A stretch of DNA of 63,892 bases, filler included, from Kipferlia bialata (lineage: Eukaryota): the NCBI GenBank assembly GCA_003568945.1. It is 6 parts of 6 records of this genome, joined end to end, with 100 filler letters (N's around TTAATTAATTAA, not from the genome) between each part and the next. Parts side by side here need not be neighbours in the genome. Positions count along the whole stretch, not along the records: positions 12,454 to 24,789 come from BDIP01001096.1; 5 more parts are not named here. One strand, written 5' to 3'. This document shows positions 696 to 43,123 of this stretch, one piece after another. A program made the position numbers and the translations under genes. The notes beneath the pieces were generated by a model that was given only the letters and a program-made list of their open reading frames with translations, had not been told where the DNA came from and made no database searches. Within the stretch, counting starts at the first letter, position 1; each line of letters starts with the position of its first letter.

Positions 696-1113
696 CTAGT
701 AGTCATTGACTATCCTGAGGATGGAGGGGGTCTCGTCCTTGGCCTCCTAAGGGGTCAGCGACTAATACTTAGATATATCACAAACCCACGGTAGGAAGAT
801 TTGAGAATAGAAAGAACTGGAAGAAGAGAGAGATACATATACATTTGAAAACAGTACATACCGCCACGTATCCGAACACTCTGTCTGGCACCTCTCTCTC
901 CACTCTCTCCACTCCCTCTCTCTCTCTCTCTATATGTATATATACGTTTGTACATACCGCCACGTATCCGAACACCCTGTCTGGGACCTCTCTCTCCACC
1001 CTCTCCCTCTCTCTCTCTCTCTCTCTCCATATGACTGTAGATGTATATACATATGCTAGAACATGTACATACCGCCACGTATCCGAACACCCTGTCTGGG
1101 ACCTCTCTCTCCA

Positions 1114-1150
<37 letters not shown>

Positions 1151-3759
1151 AGTATATATACATTTGTACATACCGCCACATATCCGAACACTCTGTCTGG
1201 GACCTCCCTCTCCACTCTCTCCCTCTCTCTCTCTCTCTCTATATATATATGACTGTAGATGAATACATATACTAGAACATGTACATACCGCCACNNNNNN
1301 NNNNNNNNNNNNNNNNNNNNNNNNNNNNNNNNNNNNNNNNNNNNNNNNNNNNNNNNNNNNNNNNNNNNNNNNNNNNNNNNNNNNCTCTCTCTCTCTATAT
1401 ATATATATGACTGTAGATGAATACATATACTAGAACATGCACTCACCGCCACATATCCGAACACCCTGTCTGGGACCTCTCTCTCCACTCTCTCCCTGAC
1501 CTTCCTCTCATGCCTCTCCTCGGCACCTGGGGGTGAGAAAAGGGGGTAGAGGGAGAGAGAAGAGAACCTATGCAGAGCGAAACTGATGCATCAAGTATTG
1601 GCATATATGTCTCTATATACCTATGCTTCCCTCAGCAAATGCAGCGACAGGCCTTCTGATGCAACTAGCAACACCATCTCCTGACAATAAGGGTGTAGAG
1701 AGAGAGAGAGAGAGACTTCTGATGCAGCTGGCAACACCATCTCTTGACAATAAGGGTGTAGAGAGAGAGAGAGAGAGTCTTCTGATGCAGCTGGCAACAC
1801 CATCTCCTGACAATAAGGGTGTAGGGAGAGAATAGATACTTCTGATATATAGCGCCCAACATCCTCCTGACATTATGAATGTGAGGAGAGAAAGATAGAG
1901 AGACATACCTCCCCCGGCCTTCTTGGTAGACTTGGCCATCTCCATGGGACGCCTCACAGCAATGTCCTGGGAATAAGGGTCTAGGGGGAGAGAGAGAGTA
2001 GATACTATATGTGATGCATGACAGCAATGTCCTGATACTTAAGGGTCTAGGGAGAGAGAGTAGATACTATATGTGTCTCACAGCAATGTCCTGACACTTA
2101 AGGGTGCAGAGGGGGAGAGAGAGAGAATGAATATAAGTTGGGCGCCCCACAGCAATGTCCTGGGTGGAAGTGTCCACATACAATGAGAGATAGTATGAAG
2201 ATTCAATATTGTGTATATAAAGTATACATAGTATACATATACCTTGTCCGTGAGTCTCTCTGGCCAGGCAGGTGGATATATACAGCACATACATTCTGTC
2301 CACTACAGTATACAGATAGAAATAGGTATACATACTGCTCCATACCTTGTCCGTGAGTCTCTGTGGCCAGGCAGGTGGGGCCTCGAGGTCCTTGTACTGC
2401 TGGGGGTAAGGAATGTGAATAATATCCTTTAGGATATATGCATCTATATGTATATACATATGTATGTACATATGTATCCACGCCCACGTGTCTGATGCCA
2501 CTGTCTGGTCTCTGGTCAGAGACTATACAGACTATATATATACAATATACCTATGTATGCCTTTACTATATGTGTATATATATAAATACACACTCACCCC
2601 CATGTTTGATGCCACTGTCTGGTCCCTGGTCAGGGGCTGGGACCCAAACACACGGGACTCCTTGTCCTAGGGATTAAGGGTGTAGGGGGGAGAGAGAGAG
2701 AGAGGCAAAGCGAGAGAGAGAGATGAACAGACGGGACTGCTAGCCATTCCTAAATTGTATCATTGATAGTGATTCTGGGACAACTGCATTAGAACATGCA
2801 GTAAATCTGATTCATACCTCTCCTCCCCAGTTGTAGCAACGGTCAACGGTCTGGCCTGGGGTAAAGGGGTGTAGGTAGAGAGAGAGAGAGAGAGAGAGAG
2901 AGTATATGTACCTGGCTCCAGCAGGTGCACGTTCTGTCTCCGGATGACAGACTTGCTGTCGGGCCTGGGGGTGAGGTGCACGACAAAAGAGGCATTTAGA
3001 CAGAGATATAGACTCACATACACACACACCACAAATGTGCTACCAGACTGCTGCCACTCTCTCTCTCCATATATACATATATATACTATCCATACCTGTT
3101 CTGCTTGGGTGCTGCCAGACTGCTGCCACTCTCTCTCCCTCTCTCTCTCTATATCTAAATACATATCGATCTCTCTCTCTCTATATATATATATTAATAT
3201 ACCTGTTCTGCTTGGGTGCTGCCAGACTGCTCCCACTCTGCACAATGGCACCACTGCTCTCACCGGTCCTACTGATTAGACATATATAGATATGCATAGA
3301 GAGAAAAAGGGAGGGGGGTTGACACTACTGACTGAGTAGTACTCAGAGGTACCTATCAACAGTCTCTCCGAATATGGCGTCCCTCTTGTGAGCTGGCATG
3401 ACCTCTCCGCCCTGGGGTGAGATGGAAAAGGGGGGTAGAGAGAGAGAGACAGAGAGAGAGAGAGGGAAAGAGAAAGAGTTGGGGACTGACATGACCTCCT
3501 CCGCCCAAAGAGACATAATCGCTGTATTACGGAAGACAAAGGGTGTAGATAGAGAGAGAGAGAGAGACACTCACCCTAACTCCGAGGGAGGATGTTCCAC
3601 CGCCAACGGGGGCAGGCCTGGGGGTTAGACTCAAATATGCACACACTAACAGAGAGAGAGAGAGAGAGAGAGAGTGAGAGTCATAATAATTATCGCTACA
3701 TTCACACCCTATCTATACCTGTAGTGTGTCTCCAGGGTGCTACCCATCAGCAGCTCTGC

Positions 3760-3880: not shown

Positions 3881-6276
3881 GTATACATATATATATACCC
3901 TATATATACCTGTAGTGTGTCTCCAGTGTGCTGTCCATCAGNNNNNNNNNNNNNNTATATATACCTGTAGTGTGTCTCCAGTGTGCTGTCCATCAGCAGC
4001 TCTGCCTCTGTCCTCTCAACAGGACGGAGGAGCTCCTGCACACCTAGTGGTTAGTACATATACATGTATATGATTATGATACTAATAGGTATAAATGCAG
4101 GTATCAGTATGTAAGTTAGTACATATATGTGACTATACATCCATATGGACTATGCACAGAGAATAATACAACAACTAACAGACTGGGAAGAGGAGCTCCT
4201 GCACACCTGGGGGTTAGTTATGATATATATGTATATATAGGTGAAAAGAAATATACTCATATATATAGCACTGTCTACATATATATAGTGCTGGCCAGAG
4301 CTCCTGCACACCTGGGGTAAACACTTTAATAGACACATATAATACAACAGAGTATGATGCATACACTAGCTCCTGCACACCTGGGGATAGTACATATATG
4401 TGACTATACATCCATATGGACTAAGCACATAGAATAATACAACAACTAATAGACTGGGCGGAAGAGCTCCTGCGCCTGGGGTTAGTACCTATATGTGACT
4501 ATATTACTACAGCACTATACCCATATATGTGCTTAACTACAAATACAAGCAGAGATGCAGGAGGAACTCCTGCACACCAAATGGTTAATACGAATACATG
4601 AAAATATATAGAGACAATAAATCAATATATATATATACACATATTCTCTCTGTAACTATGTCTGGTCTCCAAAGGTGATTTGTATTGATACATCCATAGA
4701 CTCTCGTATATACACAAACATAGTCATCTGTACCTATGTCTGGGACGATCTGGTCTTCATGTAAATACTCACACATACACACACACACACATATATATAT
4801 ATATACACATGGTCTCTTCTGTACCTATGTCTGGGACTGTCTGGTCCCCAAAGGTGACATATACACACACACACATATATATACATATATGAATATATAT
4901 ACTCTCGTATACATATACCCTCTGTACCTATGTCTGGGACGGTCTGGTCTCCAAAGGTGAGGTCTATAATTATGCTTGTGTGTGCATACATATATATATA
5001 TATAATATCTTCTGTACCTATGTCTGGGACTGTCTGGTCCCCAAAGGTGAGATCGGGGATCTTGTACCTATACCGATCAGCCCTGTTCTAGAGGGTGAGT
5101 GGTATATATGTATATATATACATATAAGAATATATACATATTAGTATATAGGTATGAGTGTGAGAGCCACGTAGTGAGTGGACCTGTCAGCCCTGTTCTA
5201 CAGGGTGAGTGGCATAAATATGGCAAGAGTGTTTGAATACTTAGAAAGAGAGATACGTATATATAGTAAGAGAGCGAGCGGCCCACATTCATATCAGCCC
5301 TGTTCTACAGGATGAGAGCAAGAAAGGATGAAGGTGAAAGGGTGAGAGAGCTAGAAAGGATGAAGGTGAAAGGGTGAGAGAGCTAGAAAGGATGAAGGTG
5401 AGAGTGGTGAGAGAGCAAGAAAGGATGAAGGTAAGAGTGGTGAGAGAGAGGGGGGGGGGATGGTTCGAGTGCATGGAAGGAGAGTGGGAGGGCGCCTATT
5501 AAGCACAGTATAACAGATGTGCATTTGTAGTGCGTGGTAGCATAATAGTAGAACAGGGTGAGGGGTCTATGGAGTGCGTAGAGAGTATAGAAGTACATAT
5601 ATATACATATATACACACCCCACACACCCTGATGTCTGCTGTGTTCCTGTTGTTCTCTCTCTCTCTCTCTCTCCATATATACACTTCACTATATACTATA
5701 CACACCCTGATGTCTGCTGTGTTCCTGTTGTCCCTGGTTGGGTCCTCTCTCTCTCTCTCTCTCTCTGTCTCAATATGTATATATACAAATAGCAGGGTGG
5801 TATATTTCGTACCCTGATGTCTGCTGTGTTCCTGTTGTCCCTGGTAGGGTCCTCTCCTAGCTGGATGTGGGACACATGCCTGTGATAAGTCATATATAGA
5901 GGCATAGAGACTGGGAGAGGTCAGTCTCAATGTGAATATAGTATAGCTGGATGTGGGACACATGCCTGGGGGTGAGACACTTAACTAATAGGGATAGAGG
6001 CATAGAGAGAGAGTGTGTGAGAGAGAGGGGTAGTCTCTTGGACATGATGTGGGACACATGCCTGGGGGTGAGACATTCAAAGAGAGGGAGAATGGAGGGA
6101 GAGGTCAATGTATAGTAGTGGTGGCCATCGCCACTTCACCGTCGTTTTCCAGAGTTTACACCCAGAGAGACAGACAGACTAAGCAGGGTAGATGCTGATG
6201 CATATTGCAATACCTGGTGTTGTAGATGCCGGACATACTGGGTATGTCTTGGAGAGAGGGAGGAGCTTGATGGCAT
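696..6276 (-). CDS. Multi-exon hypothetical protein
   Basis: Chain of short GT-AG exons, e.g. HVSHIQLGEDPTRDNRNTADIR, NRADRYRYKIPDLTFGDQTVPDIG, DKESRVFGSQPLTRDQTVASNMG, QYKDLEAPPAWPQRLTDK, AEERHERKVRERVEREVPDRVFGYVA and last exon EAKDETPSILRIVNDY-TAG (696-698); start ATG at 6276 is tentative. Confidence 0.65.
1295..1384. other. Assembly gap inside an intronic repeat array
   Basis: Run of 90 N; a second gap of 14 N lies at 3942-3955, also inside a half-exon array. Confidence 0.95.
5315..5450. repeat. Intronic minisatellite, unit about 32-33 bp, 4 copies
   Basis: Repeating GAGC(A/T)AGAAAGGATGAAGGTGA(A/G)AG(T)GGTGAGA. Confidence 0.85.
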
Positions 6277-12453: not shown

Positions 12454-12625
12454 AGTATATATATAGATATAGCTCTCGCTCTATCTCTCTTTTTCTCCCC
12501 CCCCCCCCCCCCCCCCCCCCCTCGTCATATTTCTCCGACTCTTGCTAACTCTCTCCCCCTCTCCCTTCCCACTTACCGTGTCTCTATGCTCACCCTCAGA
12601 CTCCCCCCTAGGCAGAGGGTACTGG

Positions 12626-12667
<42 letters not shown>

Positions 12668-12682
12668 ATTGCTCACCCTCAG

Positions 12683-13706
12683 ACTCCCCCCTAGGCAGAG
12701 GGTGCTGGCTGAACGGTGGATACTGCGGCTGAGGTACTATTCTATATACAGGCCTTATAGTTCACTCTCTCTGCTGACTTCACCGTGTGACCATGACCCA
12801 TTCTCTCTCTCTCCCTCTCTCTCTCTCCCCCTATATATCTACCTACATATTTGTGTGTGTTTCTAATAACCCCAGGGGCTATGACTTCACTGTGTCCACA
12901 TCCTCTCCTTCTCTCTCTTTCTGTCTTTATAGATATATACCATATAACCCTAGGGGCTATGACTTCACTGTGTCCCCTGTCACCAAGACCCATTCTCTCT
13001 CTCTCTCTCTGTCTCTCTCTCTCTCTCTCTATCTTTCTATAACCCCAGGGGCTATGACTTCACTGTGTCCCCTGTCACCAAAACCCATGATCTCTCTCTC
13101 TCTCTCTCCCTCTCTCTCTCTCTTTCTATCTGCCTGTATATATATAGATATATCTATCTAATAACCCCAGGGGCTATGACTTCACTGTGTCCCCAGTCAC
13201 CAAGAGACGCAGGAACAACTATGCACGGCTCCTGTTGTATCAGGCATACACTGTATTCCCCCCTCCCCCTTAGTGCATTCCTGAGTCTCTTTCCCACTGT
13301 CTAGATGCCCTCTCTGCTCTCTCTCTCTCTCTCTCTCTTACCCTAGATTGAGACCGACTCTAGACTGTCCTACCCCTTCACTGATGAGCCCATGGACAGT
13401 GTTCACATATATGTGTATATACATATACAAGTGTGAATACATATCTAATCACAGATTGAGACAGATTCAAGGCTCTCCTACCCCTTTACTGATGAGCCCA
13501 TGGACAGTGTGGACCTACCTCCCCTGTCACCAACCACACTCATGTCGGTGGCTGCACTGTCCAGTCCTCTGCGGTAAGTCATATTGTTATATTAACGTTT
13601 CTCTATCCACTTTGTTGTACACACCTTACCACAGTCTCCCTGTCCCCATCTTCTGTCCACTGTTCACATGTTTGTATATGTATATATCAGTCACTATTAT
13701 ATGTTT

Positions 13707-13741
<35 letters not shown>

Positions 13742-16700
13742 GTACCTCACCCTCCAGCCTCCCTGTCCCCACCTTCTGTCCCGTGTCACCCACATCACGC
13801 ACTCGGATAGACCCAGGTATGGGAGTAATATTATCAAATCCATATAGTACTACTCTATTATTGCGTATATCCCGCACTCTAGTATGTTCACTGTGTCCCT
13901 GTGTCTTTCGAATCTCTCTCCCTCTCTCCCCTTATCTCATATCCATCTGTTTGTAGTGCATATACACGTTGGCTATTTGCATTGTATATATCTGTATCGC
14001 TCACTCTCCAGGCAGCAGTGCATACACACGTCCCAGAGGCCCCAGGTCCAGTGGGAGGAGGAGGGAGAGAGACCTCTCACCGCCAAGGTTGGGAGACAGT
14101 ATTACGGATACATGTATTCCTTGGAAAATAGTAGTCATCCCATACGTCAGCGGAAGTTGTACTTCCCCCACCTCCTTCACGCACACACCCACATATATAG
14201 TAACATATATATTAATGACTACCAATGCTATACTATTCTATATCTTAAACCTAGCTGTGGATCAGATGGTGATGACGCCTCCCCCACCTCGTTCATGTAT
14301 ATATATATACATATACCTATACCTTATATTATATGATACGTTCACCACTATATAGTATTCCAACACTAGTTGTGGATCAGATGGCGACGATGCCTCCCCC
14401 ACCTCGTTCACACATATATATATATATGTATATCAGTATTTGTGTCATATCTAATGTATATACACAGTGTCTAATGCCAGTTGCGGCAGTGATGGTGATG
14501 ACGCCTCCCCCACCTCGTTCACCCCCAAGGAGAGGGACAGGGTGAGGGAGAGACAGAGAGAGAGAGAGGGGGAGAGGGACAGGGTGAGGGACAGGGTGAG
14601 GGAGAGGCAGAGGGTATCACACACACAAGGCAATGACTACGATAGGGGTGTAGAGGGTGAGAGAGGGGGAGAGGGAGTAGCATCTATCCACCCCCAGCCC
14701 CTGATGGATATAGTGGTGTCACCCACACACTATAGGGAGACAGGGATAGGGAGGGAGAGAGCATCACCCAGACACTACAGAAGTAGAGAGGGAGAGAGAG
14801 AGAGAGAGTATGCTGTGTCTCCCCCCCACCCATCGTATGCTGGAGTGGCCTTAGCAGCCAGGGAGAGAGAGTTGCAGAGGAAGCTAGACAAGGTATGTGC
14901 ATATAACTATTGGTATTGATGTGTAGCACTACCATTCCCCCTTACCCCCAGGCCAGGAGGAGCAAAGCCAGTATCAGTATACTATATTATACTATATTTC
15001 ACTATACCATACTATTCATAGTGTATACTGCATTACCATATTAATACCCCCTGACCCCCAGGCCAGGAGGAGCACAGCCAGTCTGAGGGACACCATAGAC
15101 ACACAGGTACTAGGCCTAGTAGTGATATCATAAGTGTTTAGTACCCATATACGCATGTGCTCGTGCCATTGACCTTCTGTCCGATTAGAGTGCCAGTCTC
15201 TCTCTCTCTCTATCTCCCCCCCAACCACCCTCTCTCTATATATATGTGTATTTACCTATAGGCCCATCGCATTGACCTCCTGTCTGGTGAGAGTGCCAGT
15301 CTCTCTTTCTCTCTATATGTATATATATATATATATGTGTGTGTGTATGTTTATATATAAGTACTAACCTCTAGGCCCGTCGTATTGACCTCCTGTCTGA
15401 TGAAAGTGCCAGACGCTCACTGCACTCACTGTCACCCACAGTCATACAGGTACGGATAAATCAAGTAGATCTCATTACATATATATTATGAGACAGAGAG
15501 GTTATGAGAGTAGTCACTATATATATTGTAAGTTCTGGCTGCCATGATATTCTATTCTCTCACTCCAGGCCCCCGATAGGACACGGGGCAGCCGCATACT
15601 GCAAGAGAGAGAGGTGGAGAGGGAGAGAGCGAGGGTGAGGGAGAGGGATGCTCCACTGACCCTAGAAGGCCTATCACCTGCGTCAGCATCACGGTACGTC
15701 AGTATTCATTTACTATTATAACATATGATTATGACAGAATTATAGTGAATAGTGTATGATATATAGTAATACATGTCTTCTTCTCATCCAGGGCCCAGTA
15801 CACCGCTGATGCACACAGAGATGCACATAGGGCAAGGGAGAGACATACAGCAAGGGAGAGAGTGGGTGGCAGTCCCAGGATGGGGTGGGATGGGGTGTCT
15901 AGGGAGAGGGAGAGTGCGGTGAGTGTGAGGAGGAGAGGGGGGGAGAGAGACAGGGATTCGGATGATGTCATCATAGACGAAGGGTTCCTGGACCAGATGA
16001 GTAGGTATAGCACTATTATTACTGTACAAATTTTGTGATAATATATTCTAATGTATTGTCTATTCATGCAGTAGTTCTTTCGTCGTGAATATTGAGATCA
16101 GACAGTAGTTGTTCCCATGGTATATCTATGTATCTAGTCTCACCCCAGATATCACCAGGAGACTCTTCGGAGAAGCCAGATTGGCACATGAGGGGTAGTG
16201 GAAGATAAGGAGAGTGTATTATAGTGTGTTTCGCGTTGTATAAGTAGTAGATCAATTGATTGTGAATAAAGGGTTCATAGTTTTTGATTCTTCTACACGC
16301 TCCACTTAGTTGGTGAGATATGTAAACCGTCCTCTCTTGCTTCCAACTCTCCCTCCTATTGGATGTCCACCCGTGGTGTATCTGCACGTCCAGCCCCCTC
16401 TACCTTCCACCGGGGGCCTGTACCCACAGGCACAGAGAGTGAGAGCGACACGCCTGTCTCCTACACACTCATGTCTGCACGCCCCTTTCCTACCCACTGT
16501 GAGGCACAGATGCTTGACTGTCCCTACCCAAAGGCCCCATCACTCTCCATACCCATCATACCCACCAGTGAGAGAGTGTTAGCAGCCCCTGCAACCGCTC
16601 TCCCTGATCTGACCCCCATAGAGCCTATCCCCTACACGGAACACAACATGTCACGAGACCCTGTCATAAGGGTACAGCAGTACCAGGTGGGTGTGGGTAG

Positions 16701-18372
16701 CAAGTATAGGACTGCTCAACTAGGTGTATTCTCTGTCTGCCGTGATATGTATTCGAGTGTACAGTGGGCCGACTCGTCACTGACGAGATGGTGACAATCC
16801 AACCTGTCTACAGTGATACTACACGCTTTGATGATTTCAAGTATATACCTCCAGTCTACTCCTTGGTGTCTCTTCTTGACTCTGCTTGGTACTTGCTATG
16901 ATTTGGCGTGACGCTGAGGTGTGTAGCGGTGCACATACTCACTAATACCGAGTCATAATTGTTAACCGAAACACCCTACTTCTTCAACCCTACAACTATC
17001 TCTGCTCACACTTAGAAATCAGAACTACTCAATATTTATGTTTATACATATAGTCTATGCTCTATAGACTCTATAGTTTAGACTCACACCCAGGCCAACA
17101 TTGACTGGTACCAGATGTGTCTAAGGGCCACCAGACAGGACATGCAGGCAGTGACCAACCCACAACAAGAGGTATATCATATACATAACAACATATACAT
17201 TCACACACCCACACCCACACATACACACACATATATATATATATTAATATATATATTAATATACACAATGTAGACAGGACATGCAGGCGTGGCACAGAGA
17301 CAGACAGAGGTATATACATACATACTATATAGTATCCATAGATTACGTACACTAAGCTCTCGTTGAGAGTGCATTTGCACACTAGCTCCTCCTACGCCTA
17401 GATTCAAACGGGTATCAATATAAGTAAGTGTGCTGTATATCAAGTGCATGTACATACTAATCTAACTGTTAGGGTGTCCTCAGTGCCAGTAGTGAGGTGG
17501 ATGCCCTCCGGTCCCAGGTGTCCGAGGCAACCAGTGAGAACACATACCTCAGGTACATTGTTCATAGTGATATATTCTTACTTATGTGCTATTACACCTA
17601 CTACATACTATCGTAGACGACCAGTGAGAACCCATACCTCAGGTATATAGATCTTGTTCTAGATGGGTAACTACGGTAGTTACTAAACACCAACAGAAGC
17701 ACTCTCCTCTGCAGTGTACTCACACAAATCCCATATATATACTTGTACCTAATACATCCCAAAACCTATCACACACCTGCTACTATTGCTACCCTCAGAA
17801 GCACTCTCCTGTCCATGCAGGATGCCTACCAGAGACATGTGGATACTGAGATCGAGAACTGCAGTGCACACTACAGGGTGAGACGGGGAATCCATATCGC
17901 AACTCTAGAACACAACCACTGTATACATGCACTATTAGAAAACGAACAAGGATACACTCCATTGGGTAACGTACACTGAAAGTGTATATATTGTAAAGAG
18001 TATGCGAATGAGGTACCTGTACTCACGGTAGATACTATGGTATACACCAATCACTAACCCCCAGGCCCAGTACCAGCGCCACATCCAGTCACTAATTACA
18101 TATACATATACATATCCATTAGCCATTCTCTATATGCATACAATATACACTGTGTACTAACCCCTTAGGCCCAGTACCAGCGCCACATCCAGTCCCTCCA
18201 GAGGATGTTACCAAGGACACCCCAAGACGCACATACATCTTACACACATCATGGGGCGTCAGTAACCACTAAGAGTCACTTCTCCCGTCCGGTCTCTAAG
18301 GGCGTCCACCGCCCTGCTGCCTCAGCTCTCACTCTCCCAAAGAGAGAGAGAGAGATTAGGCAGATGCACTGA
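12683..18372 (+). CDS. DUF4485 (CEP112 N-terminal-like) domain protein, 5' truncated
   Basis: Spliced N-terminus LPPRQRVLAERWILRL-RGYDFTVSPVTKRRRNNYARLLLYQ-IETDSRLSYPFTDEP matches the recalled DUF4485 pattern (W..+L ... RN.YA.LL ... PF...P); low-complexity middle; last exon ends ...REIRQMH-TGA at 18370-18372. Confidence 0.7.
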
Positions 18373-19179
18373 TCCAGTGAGTCTGTGCCTGAATAGCTGT
18401 GGAGAATTTCTATATCATTCTTTACCCCATTTCATTACGAGATCAATAGATGTCCCAGTGTCCACGCTTTACACTGAATCAGTGTCTGATAAATGAGTGA
18501 TACAAGTTGTGTATTCATTGGTAGAGCAGTTATCGTATAAATTTTTCAGAAAGTGGTGATTAAAGGGTCAGAATAAGGTCATCACAAGTTGTGATTCACA
18601 ACTGCTATTCAAGGTGGCTAGAAGATGCCAGCAGAGGCTCCCAAGACCTTGATACTGCCAGTTAAGATCTTAGTGAGGGAGAACCGTAGGGATAGGAAGG
18701 CGTTGGGTGTTATTGAGACTCGGTGTGAGTTCTCCGACCTGGGCCACCCTCTTTCAGCACTGTTTCAGTTAGCTGATCACTGCTCTAAGCCATTAGTCTC
18801 ACAGTGTGAGTCACACTACTATTCTCTCAGTACGACCAATTTACATAATCTATTACAGGTGACAAAACACCAATCAGGGCATATCAAACGCATACCCAAA
18901 CAAACCATAACGTGAAACAAACATATATATACAATAAGCAAACATGACAAGTTAAATATGAAGACACCCAAGAGCAGAGTAACACCAAGACAATCAATCA
19001 ATCAATCAAGGGACCTCCAAGCGTACTTCTGGTGATAGCGTGCCAAACACCGCTGACATCACTCTCTCAAACACCGCACTCTACAGTTGCAGATGAGTCC
19101 ATGGGAGATTCCTCTGGGCGCCGGCTCAAGAGTGTGTGATGGAGAGCACTCTACAGTGAGTGGTCAAAGGACTATGGGG

Positions 19180-20968
19180 CTAGGGCAACAGGCCATGCGC
19201 CTCGTTCAGCACCACCCCATGGTCTGGTACAATGCCAGCAGCCTCGGTGCCTGGGGGGTTAGATTCACATATAAACCACACATATTGTAAATATATCGTA
19301 AATATCTACATACTACTATACTCAATGACAATACCTATCACGTGCTCCTTCCAGCCCTTGACCACTGTCTGTCCTGGGACACACTCACACTCGCCAACGA
19401 CACAGGCAACCTGTAGGGTTAGATGATAGTTATCAAAGACAAATACAAAGAATAACGGGTATCTCCCTATAACAGATACACTATATGTATACTATAATAT
19501 GTATGTATACACACATACATATATATATATTAATGCAACATCTTTACATGTATGTATAACATATTACCACTACTATACCTTTGGCTCCATGCGTATCTGC
19601 CTTCTGATCTCGGCAAATCCCTCGCCATAGGCCTCGGCGTCCTGGGGGTGAGGGAGGTAGATGACCTAGTACATATTTATGACTAACATTTACATACAAA
19701 CTTATATATATGTAAATATTTACTATCTATATACCCACCTCTATGTCACAGGCCAGGGGCGTGGCCTTGACGTGCAGGGACTGCTCAAGCAGGGGGCGGG
19801 AAATGTTACGCGATATGCTCTGCCCAAAGACAAATGCCTGGGGTTAATGTATATATCAGAAAGAGAAAATAGAATATGTTCACACTCTCACTTGACACTA
19901 CAATACATTACACATATACATATAGTGTATAGTAGTATACTATATATATACCTCTGACGACTGCAGTATGTCATGCACCCTTGGGCACACTGTCACTTGA
20001 CCAAGGGGAGAGAGGGCCTCCATGCCTCTGGCCCTGGGGTGAGGGATATGTATATATACGAACTATTACATATACTTATATTCCTATTTTGAATACCATA
20101 CGATTATAGATTATACCATACGGTTACAAATGATGCATACCTAGAGGGCGCCGACCCAAACATGTCATAGGCCACTCTGATCCTGAGGGGTCAGATACGG
20201 TTTAATAGACACTGAAACACTCAGTCGTTATGTATTCTGTATTCATTAGGGAGAGAGACATACATACCTTCCCAGAACGGCAGCAAATGCAGGTCCAATG
20301 GCAACTCCACATCTGAGAGTGAGTAGGGGGACTAAGCTACACGATACGGTAACAGTACACAATGAATAAATATATGATATATTACGCGCTACATACCTGA
20401 CGTGCAGGGCCACTCCCATTGTGTCAAAGATGGACTCGGACACAGCCAGCATCTCGTGGCTGGCCTAGGGGTTAGATACTAAGGGCTAATCTAATACTAA
20501 CCACATACACATAGGTCAAATACTATACAATACGTATATATATATCTGTACCTGCACCATGTCACTGCGTCTCTGATCGATGCGACAGCACTATCACAAT
20601 GTATATGAATAATATGTATGTACATTACTATGTATATATTCATCTGCACCTGCACCATGTATGCCACTGCGTCTCTGATGGATGCAACAGTGGAGCACCT
20701 GGGAGTCAGACATCTAGTAAGTATCTAAACCCACATATGTATGCTATGCATATACATTATATAGAAAATATATAAATAGGGTACCTCAGTTCACAGGGGG
20801 TGAAGGGTCTGTAGAGCTCGTAGGCGTCACCGATGGTCTTGACCTGGTGATTAGGCATATGATACCATATTATCAATATATCTATCAGTGTATATTTATA
20901 TATAGAGAGAGAGAGAGAGAGAGATCACCGATGGTCTTGACCTAGAGGGGTGAGACATACAGTGAGAC

Positions 20969-21019
<51 letters not shown>

Positions 21020-23694
21020 GTACCTTCGCCACCCCGTATGAGGCATACTTGTCCACTATCCTGTCAAATGCAGTTACCATACACACACACACATATATAT
21101 ATATATATAGTCACAATATACCTTAGCCACCCCATATGAGGCATACTTGTCCACTATCCTGTCAAATGCAGTGAACATGACATTCAGGATCTGCACCACA
21201 GTGCTGCCATGTCTGGTGCAGTAGCTAGAGGGTTAGAAAACAAAATAATACACACATATAGTAGTGCAAAATCTATATATGCAAAAGGCAGTAGTGAGAC
21301 TGGGATGTATACGGTACATATATATATATATGATGATATACTATACATTGCAATACCTTGTGAACCCTGCGATGTCCAGCTTGGCATACACCATCAGGGG
21401 GAAGAACTCAATGTCACTGCTGGGGGTAAGATGGATAAGCAAACTATCTGAATATAGAAGAACTTGTGTAGAGACTATACATACTCAATGACACATATAC
21501 ACGATATATGTCATATAGGGGAAGAACTCAATGTTACTCCTGGGGGTAAGAAATAATAATATTGCTAACGTGTATGTATTGGTAAACATATACAATAATG
21601 GCAGACATAAGTATTCCATCAGGGGGAAGAACTCAATGTCACTCCTGGGGGTAAGAGAGTATGTACATATATATACACTATACAGATACCAAGTATGTAT
21701 AAGACATAGTAAATCGATTAGACTAGTATAAATCAATAACACATCCCTACCTCTCCATGATGCTGCACTCAGCTGGTGTGGCATACTAGTCCCTCTATAT
21801 ATCCATGTATCTATAGATATATACCTATATACATACATAGACACATATGTAATTAATCATGTATACACTATACCTCTCCATGATGCTGCACTCAGCTGGT
21901 GTCGCATACTGGCCACTCCCGTCATTGACAGTCTCTCTCTCTCCCTCGCTCTCCCCCTCGCTCTCTGCCTCTCCCTCACTCTCCTGTGGGCTGGGTGACT
22001 TAGTGGCACCGGGTAGGGATATCTGGAGACCGGGGAACGGTGGAGAGAGTGGGGGTAGAGGCGGGGAGAGAGAGAGAGAGTGGATGTCCGAGGCAGACAT
22101 CCCGCTGAAGAGGCTGCTCCTCCTCTCTCTCTCCTTCCCTCTCTCCCCTCTCTCCGTAGTATCTCCATCCTCTGACACCCTAGGAGACCCATACTCCCTC
22201 ACCCTAGGGCTGTCTGTGTCTCTCTCTCTCTCCCTCCCACTCTGCATCCTGGGGCTGTCTGTGTCTCTCTCACTAGACCTTGGGCTGTCTATGTCAGCCA
22301 TGGCACACAGGAGACTGTTGCTGTCAATGCGGCCAAACCTATGGGTGAGAATGAGCACATTCGAATGGAAAGAGGTTGGTGCACGGATGTCATACTAATA
22401 ACTACTATGTAGCAGTGTATATATGCCCATACCTCCCACTGACTGGTGTGGATGGACACCGCCTGGCACTGCTCTTGCAGCTGGACCTGGGGGTGAGTAC
22501 ACATATGTTTGTTAGCGTATATACATATTTGGTATTCATGTATATATATATGTGCGTATATCCATGTATATACGCAGACAGACTCATACCTGGCGCTCAT
22601 TGGCACCCCCTCACACTATATATATATATATGTATATGTATATGTGAATGGTTATATATATAAATGTATATTCATTTGTATATCCATGCATACCTTGCAC
22701 TCATAGGCACCCCCTCACACTCCTCGTCCCTCTCTCCCTCTCCCTCCCCCTCCCCCTTGGCCTCAGTGTCAGAGGGGCCATCATTCAGGGCGGGGTAGAA
22801 CTCTGAAAATGAGTGAAGTGTGTGTTGCGTATATGGATAGTTTCACCAGCTATACAGTGAGGATTAGAGTGTCAAGGCAGGGTAAAATATATCAAGCTCT
22901 AGTTTCTCACCTTGGAAGCACCTCATGACTCCAGTATCTGTTGTAGCTCTCTCTCTCTCTCTCTCTCCATATATATATTACTCTACTCTACATATGACTA
23001 ACTGTCTCACCTTGGAAGCACCGCATGACCCCAGTCTCAGTGGTGGGTGACTCCACATCCTTCCCATTCTCCTGAGTACCTATAGGGGTGTCACGGAGCT
23101 GAGAGACTAGGGGTAAGCTAATTAATTTAAATACAATACATATAATAATATAAATATAGATATATGGTACACGACGTAGGGTGTCACGGCGCTGAGAGAC
23201 TAGGGTAAGCTTATTATAGAGAGTGTACACGACGTATGTTGAACGTTGAACGTTGAACGGTACCTGACATTCCCATGACCTTGGCGTCGAATCTGTCGAA
23301 TATGGACATGGCTCCCCTAATGTGAGTGGGGGAGAGAGAGAGAGAGAGAGAGAGAAATGTCAGGGCCAAATATATAATCAATGTGAAAGTGTAAGAATAA
23401 ATATAATATATATTCAATTATATACCTCATAACCACTCTCTGAGTGCTCGTGAGAGACCGGAAGTCAGATGCCCTAGAGGCCTGGGGTGAGAGGTGAGGC
23501 ATGGAAATGACAGAACACACACCAATGTAGTATAGATATATATATTCTGTAATTTAGATATATATATATATATATAAATATGTATATACATAAACATCCC
23601 AACCTTGTAGTTCCTGGGCAGGAGTCCCCCCTCCTCTCGGTCTTCATACTGGGCAGCACACTCCCTGGGGTTAGGCATGAATACGATACACACA

Positions 23695-23742
<48 letters not shown>

Positions 23743-23895
23743 TATTCATATATATACTTATATTAATATAAATACCCACCTCATGCTGTTGACAAACAGG
23801 GGCAGTATCACACACCCCTCCACGGCTGGGGTCACGTGCCTCTCGTCCATCTCTCTGGGGGTGAATAAAGGGTGTATAGAGAGAGTAAAGGGTGT

Positions 23896-23930
<35 letters not shown>

Positions 23931-24722
23931 GAGAGGAAGGGAGCTACTCCATTTTGTATGTGTCGTATACATACGATATATACATGGAATGTATACAAAC
24001 CATATACACATACCTCAAGAACTTTGCTGCATTCCTAGGCATCCCATCCATCTCCATATACCCCCATAAATGATTACGATTGCGTATGTACACATACCTT
24101 AGGAACTTTGCTGCATTCCTAGGCATTGTGGCCGAGGAGAAGAGCTCACTGGTGTCTGCCATGTAGGCCTCGAGGATCCTGGGGTTACAAAGAACATAAT
24201 ACACAATGATTATAGGGGTAGATATGCAGAAAGAGAGAGAGAGAGAACAAGAAGAAGATGATGACTGGTGTCTGCCATATAGGCCTCGAGGATCCTAGAG
24301 TTAGGTCACATTTATGGATAGGGATTAGGGTGTTTACCAGAGTAGAAGAAGATGACTAAATATAGAAGTAGACAGTATATACCTGTTGAAGTATCTTCCA
24401 CTGGCCACCCTAGACACTAGGACCTTGGCAGCCACTGTCTCTGTGATGTACTGATGGCCAACAAGCACAGAGACAACCTGGGGTAAGAAGGCAATAACAG
24501 TACAATGATAATGTGAATAGTTAAATAACAGATACAGTACTTGTGGTGGTGGCCGACAAGCACAGAGACAACCTGGGGTGAGGAAACACCAGGATAATAG
24601 GAATAATAGATACATTAGTAATATACACACACATCTATATATATGACCCTACCTGCACCAGGCACTGTGATATGCTGAACAGGGTGATGGGAAGGGTGGC
24701 CAGCATCATGAAGCCACACTGT
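19180..24722 (-). CDS. Membrane-anchored class III nucleotide (adenylate-type) cyclase, 5' truncated
   Basis: Spliced motifs YAKLDIAGFTSY, ILNVMFTAFDRIVDKY, KVKTIGDAY, VRCGVAIGPAFAAVLG, RVAYDMFG..ARGME; hydrophobic upstream exons; exact stop uncertain. Confidence 0.88.
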
Positions 24723-24746
24723 CTGGGAGGGTTAGATATTAAGGGT

Positions 24747-24789
<43 letters not shown>

Positions 24790-30900: not shown

Positions 30901-32047
30901 TTATGTACTTTACACTTACATGTATATATATATTCGATACCTGTTGCCATCATATATATATATATATTCGATACCTGTTGCAGCTGCCCCCTCAGCTGGC
31001 ACTGAGAGAGAGAGAGAGAGAGCATATGTACATATACATATATAAGTGCTGATGCATATACATATGCGATACCTGTTGCAGCTGCCCCCTCAGCTGGCAG
31101 AGAGAGAGAGAATGGCGGCAGTGGCAGTGTGAGTGCCCCCTGTCTGTGGCCAAGGTGGGTGCAGGAGGAGAAGAGGGGGTCTCTCTCTCCCTCTCCCTTG
31201 GGGTGAGTATGAATACAGTGCTACGGTAATTATAGATGCATTTGTATATATGTCTATATACACATATATACCTCTGCGTCACTCCCCCCTTGGACCGAGC
31301 ACTCCAGCACCACACCCCCGCCCCCACATGCACCGGTGGACATGGTGAGGCTGGTCAGGACAACACTGAGGGTTAGTGTGTTATGTACACAAATACAATA
31401 GTACATAGTATATGGTATATATATATATATATATACATGTACTGGTGCTGGACATGGACAGGCTGGTCAGAACAACGCTGAGGGTTAGTGTGTTATATAT
31501 ATCTATATATATATATATAGAGAGAGAGAGATGCGCAGGCTGGTCAGAACAACACTGAGGGTGAGTGTGTTATATATATACTCAAATACAATAGTATATA
31601 GTATATGGTATATATATATATATGTACTGATGGTGAGACTGGTCAGAACAACGCTAAGGGTGGGTATGAGATACATGTATCTATATATATAGAGAGAGAG
31701 GGAGGGAGATGCACAGGCTGGTCAGCACAACACTGAGGGTGAGCGAGCGTATCCGCACTCATACATATACTTATACACACAGTCATACCTGCACGTGCCG
31801 CTCTGTACAGAGGGGGCAAGGCATTAATACATTATACAATATAGTATATATAGTATATATTGTATATATTGGATATATAGTATATATAATACATATAATT
31901 AAGTATATATAGTATATAATATGATAATATGAATATACAAGTTACTCAATATACATTGACACACACACCTGCATGTACCACTCTGCACTGTGTGCACAAA
32001 GGGGGCGGTAGTATACACTGATAGATCTAGAGTATCCGTATATATGC

Positions 32048-32090
<43 letters not shown>

Positions 32091-35035
32091 GTACCTGCAT
32101 GTGCCACTCTGCACCGTGTGCACAGAGGGTACATTCACATAGAACCCCCATACAACTATATATTACTTGATACTTCAATATATAGATATATACTTGTATC
32201 CATACCTACACGTGCCGCTCTGCACTGTGTGTACAGACGGGGCAGTAGTATGTACAGTCTATCTATATTATACCATAGTACATACTTGTATACTAGTACT
32301 GTATATATACATCCCTACCTGCATGTGCCGCTCTGCACTGTGTGTACAAAGGGGGCAGGGGAGCCAGAGAGCAGGGAGCGGAGGGGGTTGGCCCTGGGTA
32401 TGATTACACAAAGAAGAGAGTAGAAATAGAGTGAGAGAGAGAGATAATTGAAGTGGCTCGGCCAGTTCTGGGACTAAACATTGTTATAGCGATACATATG
32501 ATATTATGCATACAGCGGAAGAGGAATATAGAGAGATACCTGCATACAGTGGGTGCTGGCAGTGACTGTGACAGGTGGGGGTATATTATATATAGATATA
32601 TATAGATAGATCTATAGATAGACACATGTCTACGTATACACACCTGTATACAATGGAAGAGAAAGAGAGAGAGAGAGAGAGATACCTGCACACTGTGGGT
32701 GCCGGTAGTGACTGTGGGACAGGGGGGGAGTGTATCTCCAGGGTGACACAGACAAGGCCCAGCTCAGGGACAGGGAGGGTAAACTCACAGAGACCCTATG
32801 GTTATGGGGGAGAGAGAGAGAGAGAGCTGCAGAGAGAGAGAGACTCAATATGTACCTGTGAGAGAGATGGCGTGGCCGCTGTGTACACGCACTTACATAC
32901 ACATACAGATATAGATGCATATATATACATAGACACATACCTGTGATAGGGTTGGTGTGGCCGCTGTGTACACTGCTCTACACAGAAACAGGCATATATG
33001 TATATATGTGTATATAAATGTGTATTAACATATACCTGGGTCAGAGTGGGCGTGGCCGCTGTGTACACACTGACCCTGCCAGAGGGATGGGCCTTGGCAC
33101 TGAACAGGAACCTAGTAGTTAGGGTATATAGATGTGTTGGAATATATATATGTATATAGGATGAATAGAGAGAGAGAGAGAGAGAGAGACTAGAGGGGTG
33201 GGCCTTGGCACTGAACAGGAACCTAGGAGGTTGGTATACATTGTATATAGGGAGATAGTGGGGGGGGGGGAGTGTGTGTATACCTATCCTGCGCATCGTG
33301 TGGACACAGTGACACAGCCAGGGGATGTATATACATATACATACATATCTATATCTATATGTATATATACATACCTGTCCTGAGCGTCGTGTGGACAGAG
33401 TGACACAGCCAGGGGAGGGAATGCCACGGGTATGGTGGCCAGGGGAGGGGGGGAGGCAGGGGTATGGGAACCAAGGCCACCCTCTCTCCTCTCCCGCTCT
33501 CTCTCCCTCTCCCTCTCTGCCACGGGGTCCTTGCGTCTGAAGAGACCTGGGGTCAATACATATACATGTATATATATATATAAATATATATATATATAGT
33601 CTGAAGAGACCTGGTGTCACAATAGACAGGTAGCATATCATATTTATATACTATATAGAGGAAGTCTATGTACTCCCTGCCACGGGGTCCTTGCGTCTAA
33701 ATAGGCCTCGTTATGAGTACACATACATGTATATAAACAGGTTTCGCATGTTGATGTATGGTATGTATATATCATAAAGGTACCTAATAGACTGGGAAAA
33801 GATACACTAGACTCTGGCCACCATAAGCACTATAGATAAACTATATATATACATATATATATATGGTCCTTGCGAATACCTATAAGACTAGGAAGAGATA
33901 CACTTGCCTCTCCCTCCCCGTAACCAGGGGGGCACCCTAACCAGTATAGGATACATATGGTATCTATACTATACATACCTAGCAAGCTAGGCAATGATAC
34001 ACTTGGCCTCTCCCTCCTAGTGACCAGGGGTGCACCCTTCTCTGGCTTGTCTGTGTGTACATGCACACCCCTGTCCAGCGCATCGACTGAGGGTGAGGGT
34101 GTACAGATACAGATGGTGTATACTATATTCTACCTATATACCTTGTGGTCATGTCTGCTTGGAAGACATAAACAACAAATAGTGGACAGGTATATATATA
34201 CAGATCGGGAGATAGATATATGAATACCTAAGGGTGTCCTCTCCCCTGTTCCCTTGCACCCGTGTGCACTGAGGTCTGTCTGCTCACAGGACAGGGTGCC
34301 AATGGTATCTACCTCAACCTCAACCTGGGGGTTAATGCTAGAAGACATATATGATATATCCATGAAGAGAGAGAGAGAGAGAGAGAGAGAGAGTTGGTCA
34401 CAGGACAGGGTGCCAATGGTGTCCACCTCCACTTCTACCTAGAGTCAGTGTCAATAGGTATATCATACACTAGAAGAGAGAGAGAGAGGGGGGGGAGACA
34501 AAGCAACTCTACTCTGGCTGATGAGAGAGGGAAAGAGAGAGAGATGAGAATCCAACTGTGGCTAGGGTGAGATATAGTGGGAAGCAGAGAGAGACAGGAG
34601 ACAAGAGGAGGCTACCTGAGGATAAGCACCATCATATACAGGTACATTGGAAGAAGTATCTTAAGTTAGACAAGGGTAGGTGTCAGTGGAGGTACCTACA
34701 TATATGTATTTTCATTTATGGTATAGAGAGAGGCTACCATATTGAGAGAGAGCTGAGAGAGAGAGAGAGCCCACCTCTGCCGATGCCAGGTGCACTGTGC
34801 CCACCACCCCCTCAGTCCCATCCTCAGTCCCCTCAGAGGCAGACTCACTGTACCCAGAGTCCTCACTGCTCTCAGACCCTCCCCTGGACCCTCTAGAGTG
34901 CTTAGAGTTCCTTATGTGCTCACCCCTCCCACTGTTAGTAGTGGCACTCACAGAGACACACACAGACAGGGTCACTCGGTCAAGCGCCTGGGGCGGCACA
35001 CGCACATGCCACAGCCGAGACTGGGTCACGGGCAT
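24940..35035 (-). CDS. Long multi-exon hypothetical protein with a Pro/Ser-rich middle and coiled-coil C-terminus, 3' truncated (could be two genes)
   Basis: Start MPVTQSRLWHVRVPPQALDRV at 35035; helical heptad-rich exons such as SYVDREVGKVNKNLNTVAGSITSSSDLYEALDDLKASIKTLDGR, RFDVLRGEVMAAIEEQRSSLDLLR, ADLAELDRMLSALIRDSEKRHS. Confidence 0.6.
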
Positions 35036-37321: not shown

Positions 37322-37505
37322 GCTCACAGAGGCACTAGTTACTAATCGAGAATGCTATTATGTATATACATTAGTACATAGTCATCCTTACCCCAGGCTG
37401 CCCAGTATGCCGCTGCCACCCATGGTATATATACATGTATATACGATATTTGTAATTATATAAGTAATACTAGTATATATCATAGTATACAGTCCTTACT
37501 CCCAG

Positions 37506-38926
37506 GCTGCCCAGTATGCCGCTGCCACCCAGGGTGCAGGGGCAGGGTATGGACAGCAGTACGCATACGCATACATGCCAGGTGGGTGTAGAGTGTACAC
37601 ATATATATATTGTAGATGCGTATGGATACCAGATGGGGATGATACCCCCTCCCCATATTTACCACCACCTTGGCTCAACTCTCTCCCCCCCCCCCCCTCT
37701 CTCTCCCTCTCACTCTAGGTGTCTCCTACCAGTCCTAATACACCATGACTGTCTTTTTTTCTCTCTCTCTATATATATATATATATGTGTGTGTCTCACT
37801 CCAGGTGTCTCCTACCAGTCCTACTACACCATGCCGGTCTCTGTCCCAGTGGCACAGTACTCCAAGAAGCTGGGGAGGAAGCTGGTCGAGTTCAAGCCAA
37901 GGTATGTATATACTTGTATATAGTCATATTCTCTCTCTCTCTATATATATATACACTCACCCCAGGGATGACGATGACAACATTGTGCCCCATGGGTTCA
38001 ACGTCAAGAGGTGGTTTGACTACCAGGTACCCTATGCCTATCATACAAGTATTATACATATTTGTGTATAGTTGTTGTATATATTTGTAGTATATGTATG
38101 TAGTTGATATAGTATCATCGTGCCCCATGGGTTCAACGTCCAGAGGTGGTTTGACTACCAGGTAAAGGGTGCATCTATTATGTGTGTAATAATAACTAAT
38201 TACTATTTAGGTATTATATAATGTCTAACCTTTAAGATTATTAAGCACGAGGAGCTGAAGAAGGACAATTCTATGATGATGTGGTGTACATTAGTTGTAG
38301 AATAATATTTATTTCTCCCCATCTCCTTCTAACCCTAGCACGAGGAGCTGAAGAAGGACAAGAAGAGTAGTATTAATATATATTTATATATATGGTATAT
38401 GTATAGTATATATATACTATATACGTGTCTAACCTTAAAGCACGAGGAGCTCAAGAAGGACAAGAAGAAGAGTATATATAGTATATACGTATAGTATATA
38501 TATATATATATATAGTGTATATATAGTCAGTACTTCTAACCCCAGCACGAGGAGCTCAAGAAGGACAAGAAGAAGGCCCCCAAGTCCAAGAACGGGTTTG
38601 GGTTCCCATTCGGCAGGGCACTCGGAAGGGTGGAGGCAAAGTGAGTATTGTCATATATATATGAACACTCTTAGTATACCCATTTCTTACGCGATAGGTA
38701 CGGAGGCACCACCACTGCCTTCTTTGCCCTGGCCAGGTGGTTCCTGATGCTCAACCTCTTCCTGTGTGCAGTGTGGATTGGACTGGTGGTACTGCCAAAC
38801 TACAGGTATACTCTCTCTCTCTCTCTCTCTCTCTGTCATGTTAATATAATAGTAAGTATGTGCAGTGTGGATTGGACTGGTGGTACTACCCAACTACAGG
38901 TATGTATATTATAGTATATTGTATAG

Positions 38927-38958
<32 letters not shown>

Positions 38959-39234: not shown

Positions 39235-39406
39235 GTATATATATATTTTGTATATGGTATATATATATACATAAGAGAAGGGGAGAGGGAGTATATATGT
39301 AGTGTGTATATATAGTATCTATCATAGACTATGCAAAAACCCTAGTCACATGGGCAGGTATCTATGTGTAAAAACTCCTATATTGTATTGGTGTTCTCTC
39401 CTGCCA

Positions 39407-39437
<31 letters not shown>

Positions 39438-43014: not shown

Positions 43015-43123
43015 AATATTGATACGTCGTACACAATGTGTACTACACATGATGATGATTAGGATCTATTCTCTGTATTATTCCAAACCAATTGTTCAGA
43101 GAAAGAGTATCCCTTGAAGTGAT

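What the first reader, a model, noticed from the sequence alone, without database searches (positions are those of the whole stretch)
13347..13520. Acceptor-side shadow with 6 of 6 synonymous changes in the DUF4485 domain
The copy (CCCTAG|ATT GAG ACC GAC TCT AGA CTG TCC TAC CCC TTC ...) and the real exon at 13455 (TCACAG|ATT GAG ACA GAT TCA AGG CTC TCC TAC CCC TTT ...) both encode IETDSRLSYPFTDEPMDS. The upstream intron sequences differ but each has its own branch point and AG. This shows the same phenomenon at 3' splice sites, on the plus strand and on a different scaffold.
Basis: seen in the sequence. Interest (0 to 1): 0.75.

Follow-up and report, generated by a model that had tools for sequence, protein, structure and literature searches.

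The report
Fossil allele exon edges in introns
In the free-living protist Kipferlia, about three in ten exon edges in this stretch have a near-copy parked in the neighbouring intron that differs mostly at silent positions and, where RNA could be checked, is spliced out; the copies are likely leftovers of other alleles stitched in by DNA-break repair, which would be a footprint of sex in a group where sex has not been observed.

Summary
Real, and one case of a window-wide pattern. 13347-13402 copies the start of exon 13455-13573 of a Kipferlia bialata DUF4485 gene, with 6 of 6 silent changes in 18 codons. A spliced contig uses the downstream acceptor and removes the copy. The window holds 142 such shadow/exon pairs, at 53 of 164 acceptors and 44 of 162 donors. 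pN/pS is 0.15 (CI 0.11-0.20), against 0.31-0.53 for a duplicate that simply decays. Shadow AG/GT and amino-acid sites have decayed about 3-5%, silent sites differ by 22%, and the intron flanks look unrelated: the profile of two formerly functional alleles. Best reading, inferred: break repair copied about 100 nt from a diverged allele and end-joined out of register. The architecture is known ('mirages' of amphioxus); the density, the non-homologous flanks and this silent excess were not found in print. DNA contigs support tandem order at neighbouring shadows; this junction itself was not covered. New variant of a known kind; interest 0.6.

The parts
13171..13243 (+). upstream real exon of the DUF4485 gene
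   Evidence: X2 record 8 piece 13169-13240; in P0001
13244..13454 (+). 211-nt intron with a GC donor and AG acceptor; it contains the shadow
   Evidence: joint 13240->13452 with 3 ambiguous letters, resolved to GC..AG
13337..13346 (+). shadow branch-like motif (CTTAC) and AG; 103 nt from the donor, a normal intron length; not used in the RNA contig
13347..13402 (+). shadow: copy of the first 56 nt of the next exon, 6 silent changes, last 23 nt identical
13403..13454 (+). second intron end (52 nt) with branch motif CTAAT at 13445-13449 and the used AG; unrelated to the intron end before the shadow
13434..13436 (+). in-frame TGA that would end translation if the shadow acceptor were used
13455..13573 (+). 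real exon (end of DUF4485 and beyond)
   Evidence: X2 record 8 piece 13452-13572; P0001
12876..13081 (+). three acceptor-side shadows of exon 13171 (starts 12876, 12954, 13049)
13635..13658 (+). acceptor-side shadow of exon 13758
   Evidence: skipped in X2 record 8, pieces abut at 13572/13757
14255..14411 (+). two acceptor-side shadows of exon 14481; both keep the peptide through a Ser codon switch (AGT versus TCA)
   Evidence: joint 14085->14479
14952..14972 (+). acceptor-side shadow of exon 15062; spanned together with the real acceptor by one DNA contig with no other letters
   Evidence: X1 record 6, 14618-15186, depth 405; joint 14890->15060
15159..15305 (+). two older, decayed acceptor-side shadows of exon 15375 (one with a stop)

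Best explanation
The copy at 13347-13402 is a non-coding duplicate of an exon start that sits in the intron and is spliced out, and it is likely the stranded exon edge of a once-functional, diverged allele. Shown: partial copy, own AG, silent-only differences, skipped in RNA, stop if used; the same layout recurs at about three in ten splice sites of the window. Inferred mechanism: when two diverged alleles met in one cell (a zygote or a parasexual fusion), a break just inside the exon was repaired from one end. The downstream end invaded the other allele in the exon and copied back about 100 nt, through that allele's acceptor into its intron. The newly made intron sequence had no match on the broken chromosome, because allele introns are too diverged to anneal, so it was end-joined (likely by polymerase theta) to the upstream end, which still carried the old acceptor and exon start. 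The old edge became intron and has decayed neutrally since. The mirror event gives donor-side shadows; repeated events give arrays. Selection keeps only events that leave the outer splice site working. How the spliceosome passes over the nearer AG is not settled: a weaker branch point (CTTAC against CTAAT here), exon definition, or decay of mis-spliced RNA.
For: (1) Nearest-shadow pairs, n = 96: 148 silent and 71 replacement changes, pS 0.224, pN 0.034, ratio 0.15 (bootstrap CI 0.11-0.20); a dead duplicate of a constrained exon predicts a silent share of 0.38-0.44, observed 0.68, p < 1e-12; simulation through the same detector gives ratios 0.31-0.53. (2) Not a frame artefact: 142 of 207 differing codons keep the residue in the modelled frame, 23 of 210 and 18 of 209 in shifted frames; frame-free, 243 of 408 mismatch pairs lie a multiple of 3 apart against 129 +- 8. 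(3) The bias is on the shadows' own lineages: changes private to the nearest shadow are silent in 21 of 31 (neutral share 0.24). (4) Two shadows keep Ser through an AGT/TCA switch. (5) Two layers of change: silent ones are symmetric (58 strong-to-weak, 56 reverse), replacements are AT-biased (36:17), no more conservative than random (BLOSUM p = 0.33) and include stops at the random rate (3 of 71). (6) AG is kept in 73 of 80 and GT in 55 of 61 shadows, about 5% decay per base, while intron flanks match unrelated introns (median z 0.0, n = 94), which needs about 40% substitution plus indels; an identical duplicate aged 3-4% would give z 5.6. (7) 3 of 5 informative site pairs in arrays of 3-4 shadows show all four gametes. 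(8) The intron before the first shadow keeps normal length (median 114 against 102) and units peak at 80-130 nt. (9) K. bialata is listed with Spo11, Dmc1, Hap2 and PolQ and without Ku70 (PMC8516963, Supplementary Data 2 rows); failed SDSA followed by Pol theta joining makes tandem duplications in C. elegans (PMC8654963, passages).
Against: No second allele or strain was found, so allele divergence of 20% or more at silent sites is inferred, not seen (run X1 shows no other letters). Intron flanks are more diverged than silent sites would suggest (25% substitution with 5% indels would still give median z 2.3), so fast intron turnover has to be assumed. No microhomology signal was seen in the one form I could test (repeat running back into the exon part: 1.04 nt against 0.84 +- 0.32, n = 28). 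The negative link between exon and intron parts (rho -0.33) can arise from misplacing the junction. The four-gamete count is small and homoplasy could explain it. In the gene with RNA-checked frames the silent share is lower (24 of 42 by single base). Worm Pol theta duplications have a median near 1 kb, not 100 nt. This junction has no DNA contig cover. All statistics come from one 64-kb window and my own gene model.
Confidence: 0.55

Rival explanations
1. Old mirage-type duplications (made from the sister chromatid) whose exon part and splice signal are refreshed now and then by out-of-register gene conversion from other alleles, while the intron flanks drift apart. It still needs diverged alleles to meet; only the birth of the unit differs.
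For: Similarity falls off within about 20 nt of the splice site into the intron; exon-part and intron-part divergence are uncorrelated (rho -0.13, p 0.23); four-gamete patterns in arrays; mirage clusters show turnover and concerted evolution (PMC3087553, passages).
Against: Repeated conversion with the adjacent real exon, the nearest template, would pull pN/pS towards 0.5 and pS down (reasoned, not simulated). Farther shadows show more decay (far-only changes 23 of 46 silent against 21 of 31 near-only), as for a series of births.
Confidence: 0.2
2. Shadows are still translated at times (alternative acceptors or donors, or cassette exons in an unsampled stage), so purifying selection keeps their coding sense.
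For: Low pN/pS; 70% of shadow acceptors score above 6 against 3% of decoy AGs; 17 of 53 outscore the real site, this one included (11.7 against 8.6); the unit here is 108 nt, in frame, and a GT follows the copy at 13401.
Against: The RNA contig skips the shadows in all five shadowed introns from 13244 to 15374 (three as listed joints, one as abutting pieces, one from record coordinates). Spacing mod 3 is uniform (46:50:45); 73 of 80 shadow acceptors give a stop or frameshift; the GT at 13401 scores -1.2 against a real 5th percentile of 2.2; no whole-exon copies among 141; replacements look random and AG/GT decay at the same rate.
Confidence: 0.08
3. Clonal history only: each shadow is an identical duplicate that preserves an older version of the exon; the real exon moved on at silent sites and the shadow decayed.
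For: It predicts some silent excess (share 0.37-0.50); 13 of 94 pairs do have clearly homologous intron flanks (top 5% rank); earlier scan notes read animal cases this way.
Against: Observed share 0.68 and ratio 0.15 lie outside every simulated setting; it would need real exons to change about 5-6 times faster than intron DNA; nearest-shadow-private changes should be neutral and are not (21 of 31); flanks should be about 93% identical and are not.
Confidence: 0.07
4. Assembly artefact: two haplotypes or strains laid head to tail.
For: Short-read draft rich in simple repeats, with N gaps inside two arrays; this junction is not covered by a laid DNA contig; X1 may be the window's own source and is no independent sample.
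Against: Independently built contigs of X1 span a shadow plus its real acceptor with no other letters (record 6), and a 255-nt record fits exactly between two identical 31-mers across two shadows (record 5; geometry checked). Long contigs lie at one depth (341-420) with no variant letters. The two copies here share only a 23-nt identical run, too short to mislead a 31-mer graph. Arrays hold up to five distinct versions, with decay and stops.
Confidence: 0.05

Closest known systems
Amphioxus 'mirages' (globins BflGb6 and BflGb9, Adh3, troponin C, PGBD5; PMC3087553 and PMC3902484, passages read; the original Adh3 paper not seen)
   Same: Head-to-tail duplicates spanning an exon-intron boundary, at 5' and 3' sites, keeping AG/GT, with normal splicing; units of 60-160 nt.
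   Different: BflGb6 units are 81-100% identical along the unit and were reported for a few genes; here the intron parts are mostly unrelated, about 30% of splice sites carry one, most arrays have 1-2 copies, and the exon parts show a silent excess beyond decay. The host is a metamonad protist, not an animal.
Human F7 intron 7 minisatellite (PMC1557585, abstract) and variable internal tandem repeats at exon-intron boundaries (PMC2812944, passages)
   Same: Repeat that starts across a splice site; the first donor wins and identical pseudo-sites stay silent, which would explain donor-side shadows.
   Different: Near-identical VNTR units; scanning explains donors, not the skipping of a nearer acceptor as seen here.
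Pol theta tandem duplications from failed SDSA (C. elegans helq-1, brc-1; PMC8654963, passages)
   Same: One extended break end is end-joined, duplicating the copied tract; K. bialata is listed with PolQ and without Ku70.
   Different: There the copy is expected to be identical at birth (sister template), median about 1 kb, with junction microhomology; here copies differ like alleles, units are about 100 nt, and microhomology is untested or absent.
Intron gain by tandem genomic duplication (PMC3265369, abstract)
   Same: A duplication carrying splice signals changes intron structure in one step.
   Different: Here an existing intron is lengthened; no new intron position arises in the RNA-checked cases.

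Membership tests
Mirage (exon-intron boundary tandem repeat) | Head-to-tail copy that spans an exon-intron boundary | tested here: met
Mirage (exon-intron boundary tandem repeat) | Occurs at both 5' and 3' boundaries | tested here: met
   80 acceptor-side and 62 donor-side pairs
Mirage (exon-intron boundary tandem repeat) | Copies keep AG/GT yet the mRNA is spliced normally | tested here: met
   AG 73 of 80, GT 55 of 61; RNA contig skips five acceptor-side cases; donor side not checked in RNA
Mirage (exon-intron boundary tandem repeat) | Minisatellite-like units similar along their whole length (81-100% in BflGb6) | tested here: not met
   intron parts median z 0.0 against unrelated introns, n = 94; this pair z -2.1. 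Filed as a variant that looks like a mirage, not as a strict member
Mirage (exon-intron boundary tandem repeat) | Copy number varies between haplotypes | not testable with these tools
   one sample only; no second strain found
Duplicated cassette or mutually exclusive exon | Whole exon copied with both splice sites | tested here: not met
   0 of 141 whole-exon copies, median 37% of the exon; donor after this shadow scores -1.2
Duplicated cassette or mutually exclusive exon | Copy appears in RNA | tested here: inconclusive
   skipped in the one contig; contigs drop rare forms
Intron gain by tandem duplication | Duplicated signals are used to excise a new intron | tested here: not met
   the old donor is joined to the outer acceptor
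Pol theta tandem duplication after failed SDSA | Organism has PolQ and HR recombinase | tested here: met
   from a paper's table, not my search: PolQ, Dmc1, Spo11 listed, Ku70 blank
Pol theta tandem duplication after failed SDSA | Microhomology or templated insertion at the junction | tested here: inconclusive
   only the dinucleotide-repeat form testable: no excess; donor allele unknown
Pol theta tandem duplication after failed SDSA | Copies identical at birth (sister template) | tested here: not met
   silent excess and unrelated flanks
DUF4485 (PF14846) host gene | Pfam score above the gathering cut-off | tested here: met
   P0001 35.5 bits against 24, residues 4-66

The most novel reading that the evidence does not exclude
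Kipferlia introns are a fossil record of sex: each shadow is an exon edge from another, strongly diverged allele, left by one-ended inter-homolog repair closed by polymerase theta in a cell without NHEJ. One haploid-looking genome would then hold tens of thousands of dated allele samples, and its spliceosome must routinely pass over intact nearer acceptors.
Probability: 0.45. Interest if true: 0.8.

Novelty: new variant of a known kind. Interest (0 to 1): 0.6.

Why it matters
No sexual or parasexual process has been directly observed in Metamonada (PMC8516963, passage). A silent excess that a clonal lineage cannot produce would be sequence evidence of allele exchange, readable from a single genome, with estimates of silent diversity (22% or more) and event age (about 3-5% decay). 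It also shows a route of fast intron lengthening: modelled introns with shadows have a median of 278 nt against 102 without. If the window's rate held genome-wide (124,912 introns, PMC5874029), shadows would number in the tens of thousands; that is an extrapolation from one window. And they offer many natural tests of 3' splice-site choice in an organism with a reduced spliceosome (87 of 174 proteins, no snRNA candidates found; PMC6679479, passages). They also mislead gene finders: my first model took this shadow for an exon.

Tried and rejected
No whole genome is held for the window, so nothing genome-wide was run. Only two runs hold the stretch, from one sample; neither is on record as RNA, and X2 is taken as RNA from its GT..AG joints. 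No reads were laid on donor-side shadows, so their skipping rests on reading-frame continuity. 13314-13625 has no DNA contig cover: no evidence either way. Search for a second strain: the metagenome scan gave 1 locus of 295 candidates, 45% identical over 44 residues, not an allele; the protein search with the LRR exon gave 0 of 86; P0001 stands alone in its cluster. Branch-point class as the rule for acceptor choice: real stronger in 17, shadow stronger in 9, equal in 27 of 53, p = 0.17; not established, although in the five RNA-checked introns the used site is always the better class. Microhomology with simple repeats: not supported; 28 of 141 junctions abut a dinucleotide repeat against 9.5% background. 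In-frame use: 30 of 96 nearest units are in frame and 10 are open, as chance gives. cDNA-templated copying: rejected by reasoning, since shadows keep intron-side AG/GT and branch motifs. One pair beside an N gap (3964/3909) was dropped after (142 to 141 pairs; 97 to 96 sites); five model exons were dropped or trimmed by hand. Literature: searches found no description of this pattern in Kipferlia and no test of silent excess in mirages; the two Kipferlia papers hold neither 'tandem' nor 'duplicat'. One search gave nothing on decay of stop-bearing RNA in Kipferlia. Subscription journals are not covered, and one supplement of PMC8516963 (a scanned PDF) was unreadable.

Full report
Observation. 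The two stretches at 13347 and 13455 encode the same 18 residues and differ at six third positions, all silent. The match runs 56 nt and then passes into AT-rich intron sequence. Each copy has its own AG and branch-like motif; the two intron ends are unrelated (z -2.1). The window is a string of separate pieces joined by N-linkers; the finding lies in the piece 12454-24789. A protein search with the real exon returned one protein, P0001, 100% identical, named by NCBI as Kipferlia bialata. It carries DUF4485 and holds the peptide once.

Which acceptor is used. Two runs of one sample hold the stretch. A 2,297-nt contig of X2 (depth 23.5) joins 13240 to 13452, which resolves to a 211-nt GC..AG intron, 13244-13454, that contains the shadow. 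The same contig skips the shadows before exons 13758, 14481, 15062 and 15375: three of these five introns appear as listed joints, one as abutting pieces and one follows from record coordinates. Use of the shadow AG would give a stop after 29 codons. This is one contig from one sample, and contigs drop rare forms.

Is the tandem order real DNA. X1 contigs lie at depth 341-420 with no variant letters. Record 6 runs 14618-15186 without a difference across shadow 14952 and its real acceptor. Record 5 is 255 nt, exactly the span 14266-14520 between two identical 31-mers, across two shadows. This junction itself was not covered, so it is supported by analogy, and by the fact that the copies share only 23 identical bases in a row. 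X1 may be the window's source; it is an independent assembly, not an independent sample.

How common. A plain scan found 195 near-tandem pairs. I built a gene model, seeded on the RNA-checked exons; for this gene it agrees with P0001 over the exons from 12683 to 16004. Anchoring on real splice sites, without requiring AG or GT in the copy, gave 142 pairs at 53 of 164 acceptors and 44 of 162 donors; one pair beside an N gap was then dropped. Exon parts have a median of 30 nt and units 100 nt; none of 141 is a whole exon. Nine gene models with 119 introns have 0.45-1.67 shadowed sites per intron; nine others with 32 introns have none.

The silent excess. For the 96 nearest pairs pS is 0.224 and pN 0.034, ratio 0.15 (CI 0.11-0.20). 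A duplicate that dies at birth still shows some excess, because the real exon changes only silently; simulated through the same detector that gives 0.31-0.53. The observed value is well below. Shifted frames give 11% and 9% residue-keeping codons against 69%, and a frame-free test gives 243 of 408 against 129 +- 8. Changes found only in the nearest shadow are silent in 21 of 31; those only in the farthest in 23 of 46. Replacement changes look like random decay (AT-biased, not conservative, 3 stops in 71), silent ones are symmetric. Two shadows keep a serine through a switch of codon family. AG and GT are kept in about 90% of shadows, about 5% decay per base. The intron flanks match no better than unrelated introns (median z 0.0, n = 94; 13 clearly homologous), which in simulation needs about 40% substitution with indels. 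So residues and splice signals differ by 3-5%, silent sites by 22% or more, and intron bulk by far more. That is how two working alleles differ, plus a little decay. Against: in this gene alone the silent share is 24 of 42 by single base, and short diverged shadows escape detection, so pS is a lower bound.

Not current use. Spacing mod 3 is uniform, 73 of 80 shadow acceptors lead to a stop or frameshift, and no good donor follows most of them. Yet 17 of 53 shadow acceptors outscore the real one on a matrix trained here, this one included. Canonical branch motifs are rarer in shadows (YTRAY 24% against 49%), but the paired test is not significant (17:9). How the nearer AG is passed over is open.

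Mechanism, inferred. The intron up to the first shadow AG keeps normal length (median 114 against 102), so a unit of about 70 nt of intron end plus about 30 nt of exon was added. One-ended copying from a diverged allele, followed by end joining when the copied intron cannot anneal, gives this layout on either side of an exon. K. bialata is listed with Spo11, Dmc1, Hap2 and PolQ and without Ku70 (PMC8516963 Supplementary Data 2, rows seen; section 8 read), and failed SDSA closed by Pol theta makes tandem duplications in worms (PMC8654963, passages). 3 of 5 informative site pairs in larger arrays show four gametes. Weak points: no second allele was found, the one testable microhomology signal is absent, and intron turnover must be fast. 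I give 0.55 to this mechanism and about 0.75 to the broader claim that the copies come from diverged functional alleles by some form of exchange.

What is known. Tandem copies of exon-intron boundaries that leave splicing intact are the amphioxus 'mirages' (PMC3087553; PMC3902484; passages), and the human F7 minisatellite (PMC1557585, abstract). I reached the term through an earlier scan note; 30 notes in at least 6 genomes hold these words, and those shown that name a host are animals. The architecture is therefore not new. The Kipferlia case fails the minisatellite-like unit test, is far denser, and has a silent excess beyond the 'older version of the exon' reading offered in those notes. 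My paper searches found no report of it; subscription journals are not covered.

Verdict. Observation confirmed; first reading supported; new variant of a known kind. Interest 0.6; if the allele-exchange reading holds genome-wide (probability 0.45), 0.8.

Noticed in passing
window 13244-13454: RNA-supported GC-AG intron; 3 of 151 modelled introns have GC donors. The genome paper counts only GU-AG introns.
   Followed up: partly
window 43700-47620, 49830-58400, 62170-63892: Nine gene models with 32 introns have no shadow and, mostly, fewer simple repeats (period-2 share 0.31-0.41 against 0.39-0.47), while neighbours have up to 1.7 per intron. Cause unknown: expression, recombination or repeat content.
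   Followed up: partly
window 14255-14411 versus 14481: Two shadows carry TCA where the real exon has AGT, both serine: a codon-family switch that needs protein-level selection or a multi-base event.
   Followed up: yes
window 850-1450 (minus) and 31788-32318 (minus): Donor-side arrays of four shadows whose silent states are shared out of order and show four gametes.
   Followed up: partly
window 55500-56000 and 56420-56910 (minus): Two adjacent paralogous genes for small membrane proteins with matching exon layout and no shadows.
   Followed up: no
window 50486-51580 (+), 51986-52693 (-), 57325-58388 (+): Three related membrane-protein gene models in one piece (shared motifs by eye); no family search run.
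   Followed up: no
window 37322-43020 (+): One modelled gene joins an N-terminal part resembling TMC-type channels (recalled, not tested) to a leucine-rich-repeat end (LRR_6 E 3e-10); it may be two genes.
   Followed up: no
window 19050-24789 (-): Adenylate/guanylate cyclase-like gene (weak PF00211 hit on one exon, E 0.015) with 10 shadowed splice sites.
   Followed up: partly
window 5300-5440: A tandem repeat of about 32 nt inside an intron, not tied to a splice site.
   Followed up: no
window 17473-17643 (+): A donor-side shadow preceded by an AG, with a GT inside the real exon: a layout from which a new intron position could arise, as proposed for mirages. Not covered by the laid stretch.
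   Followed up: no
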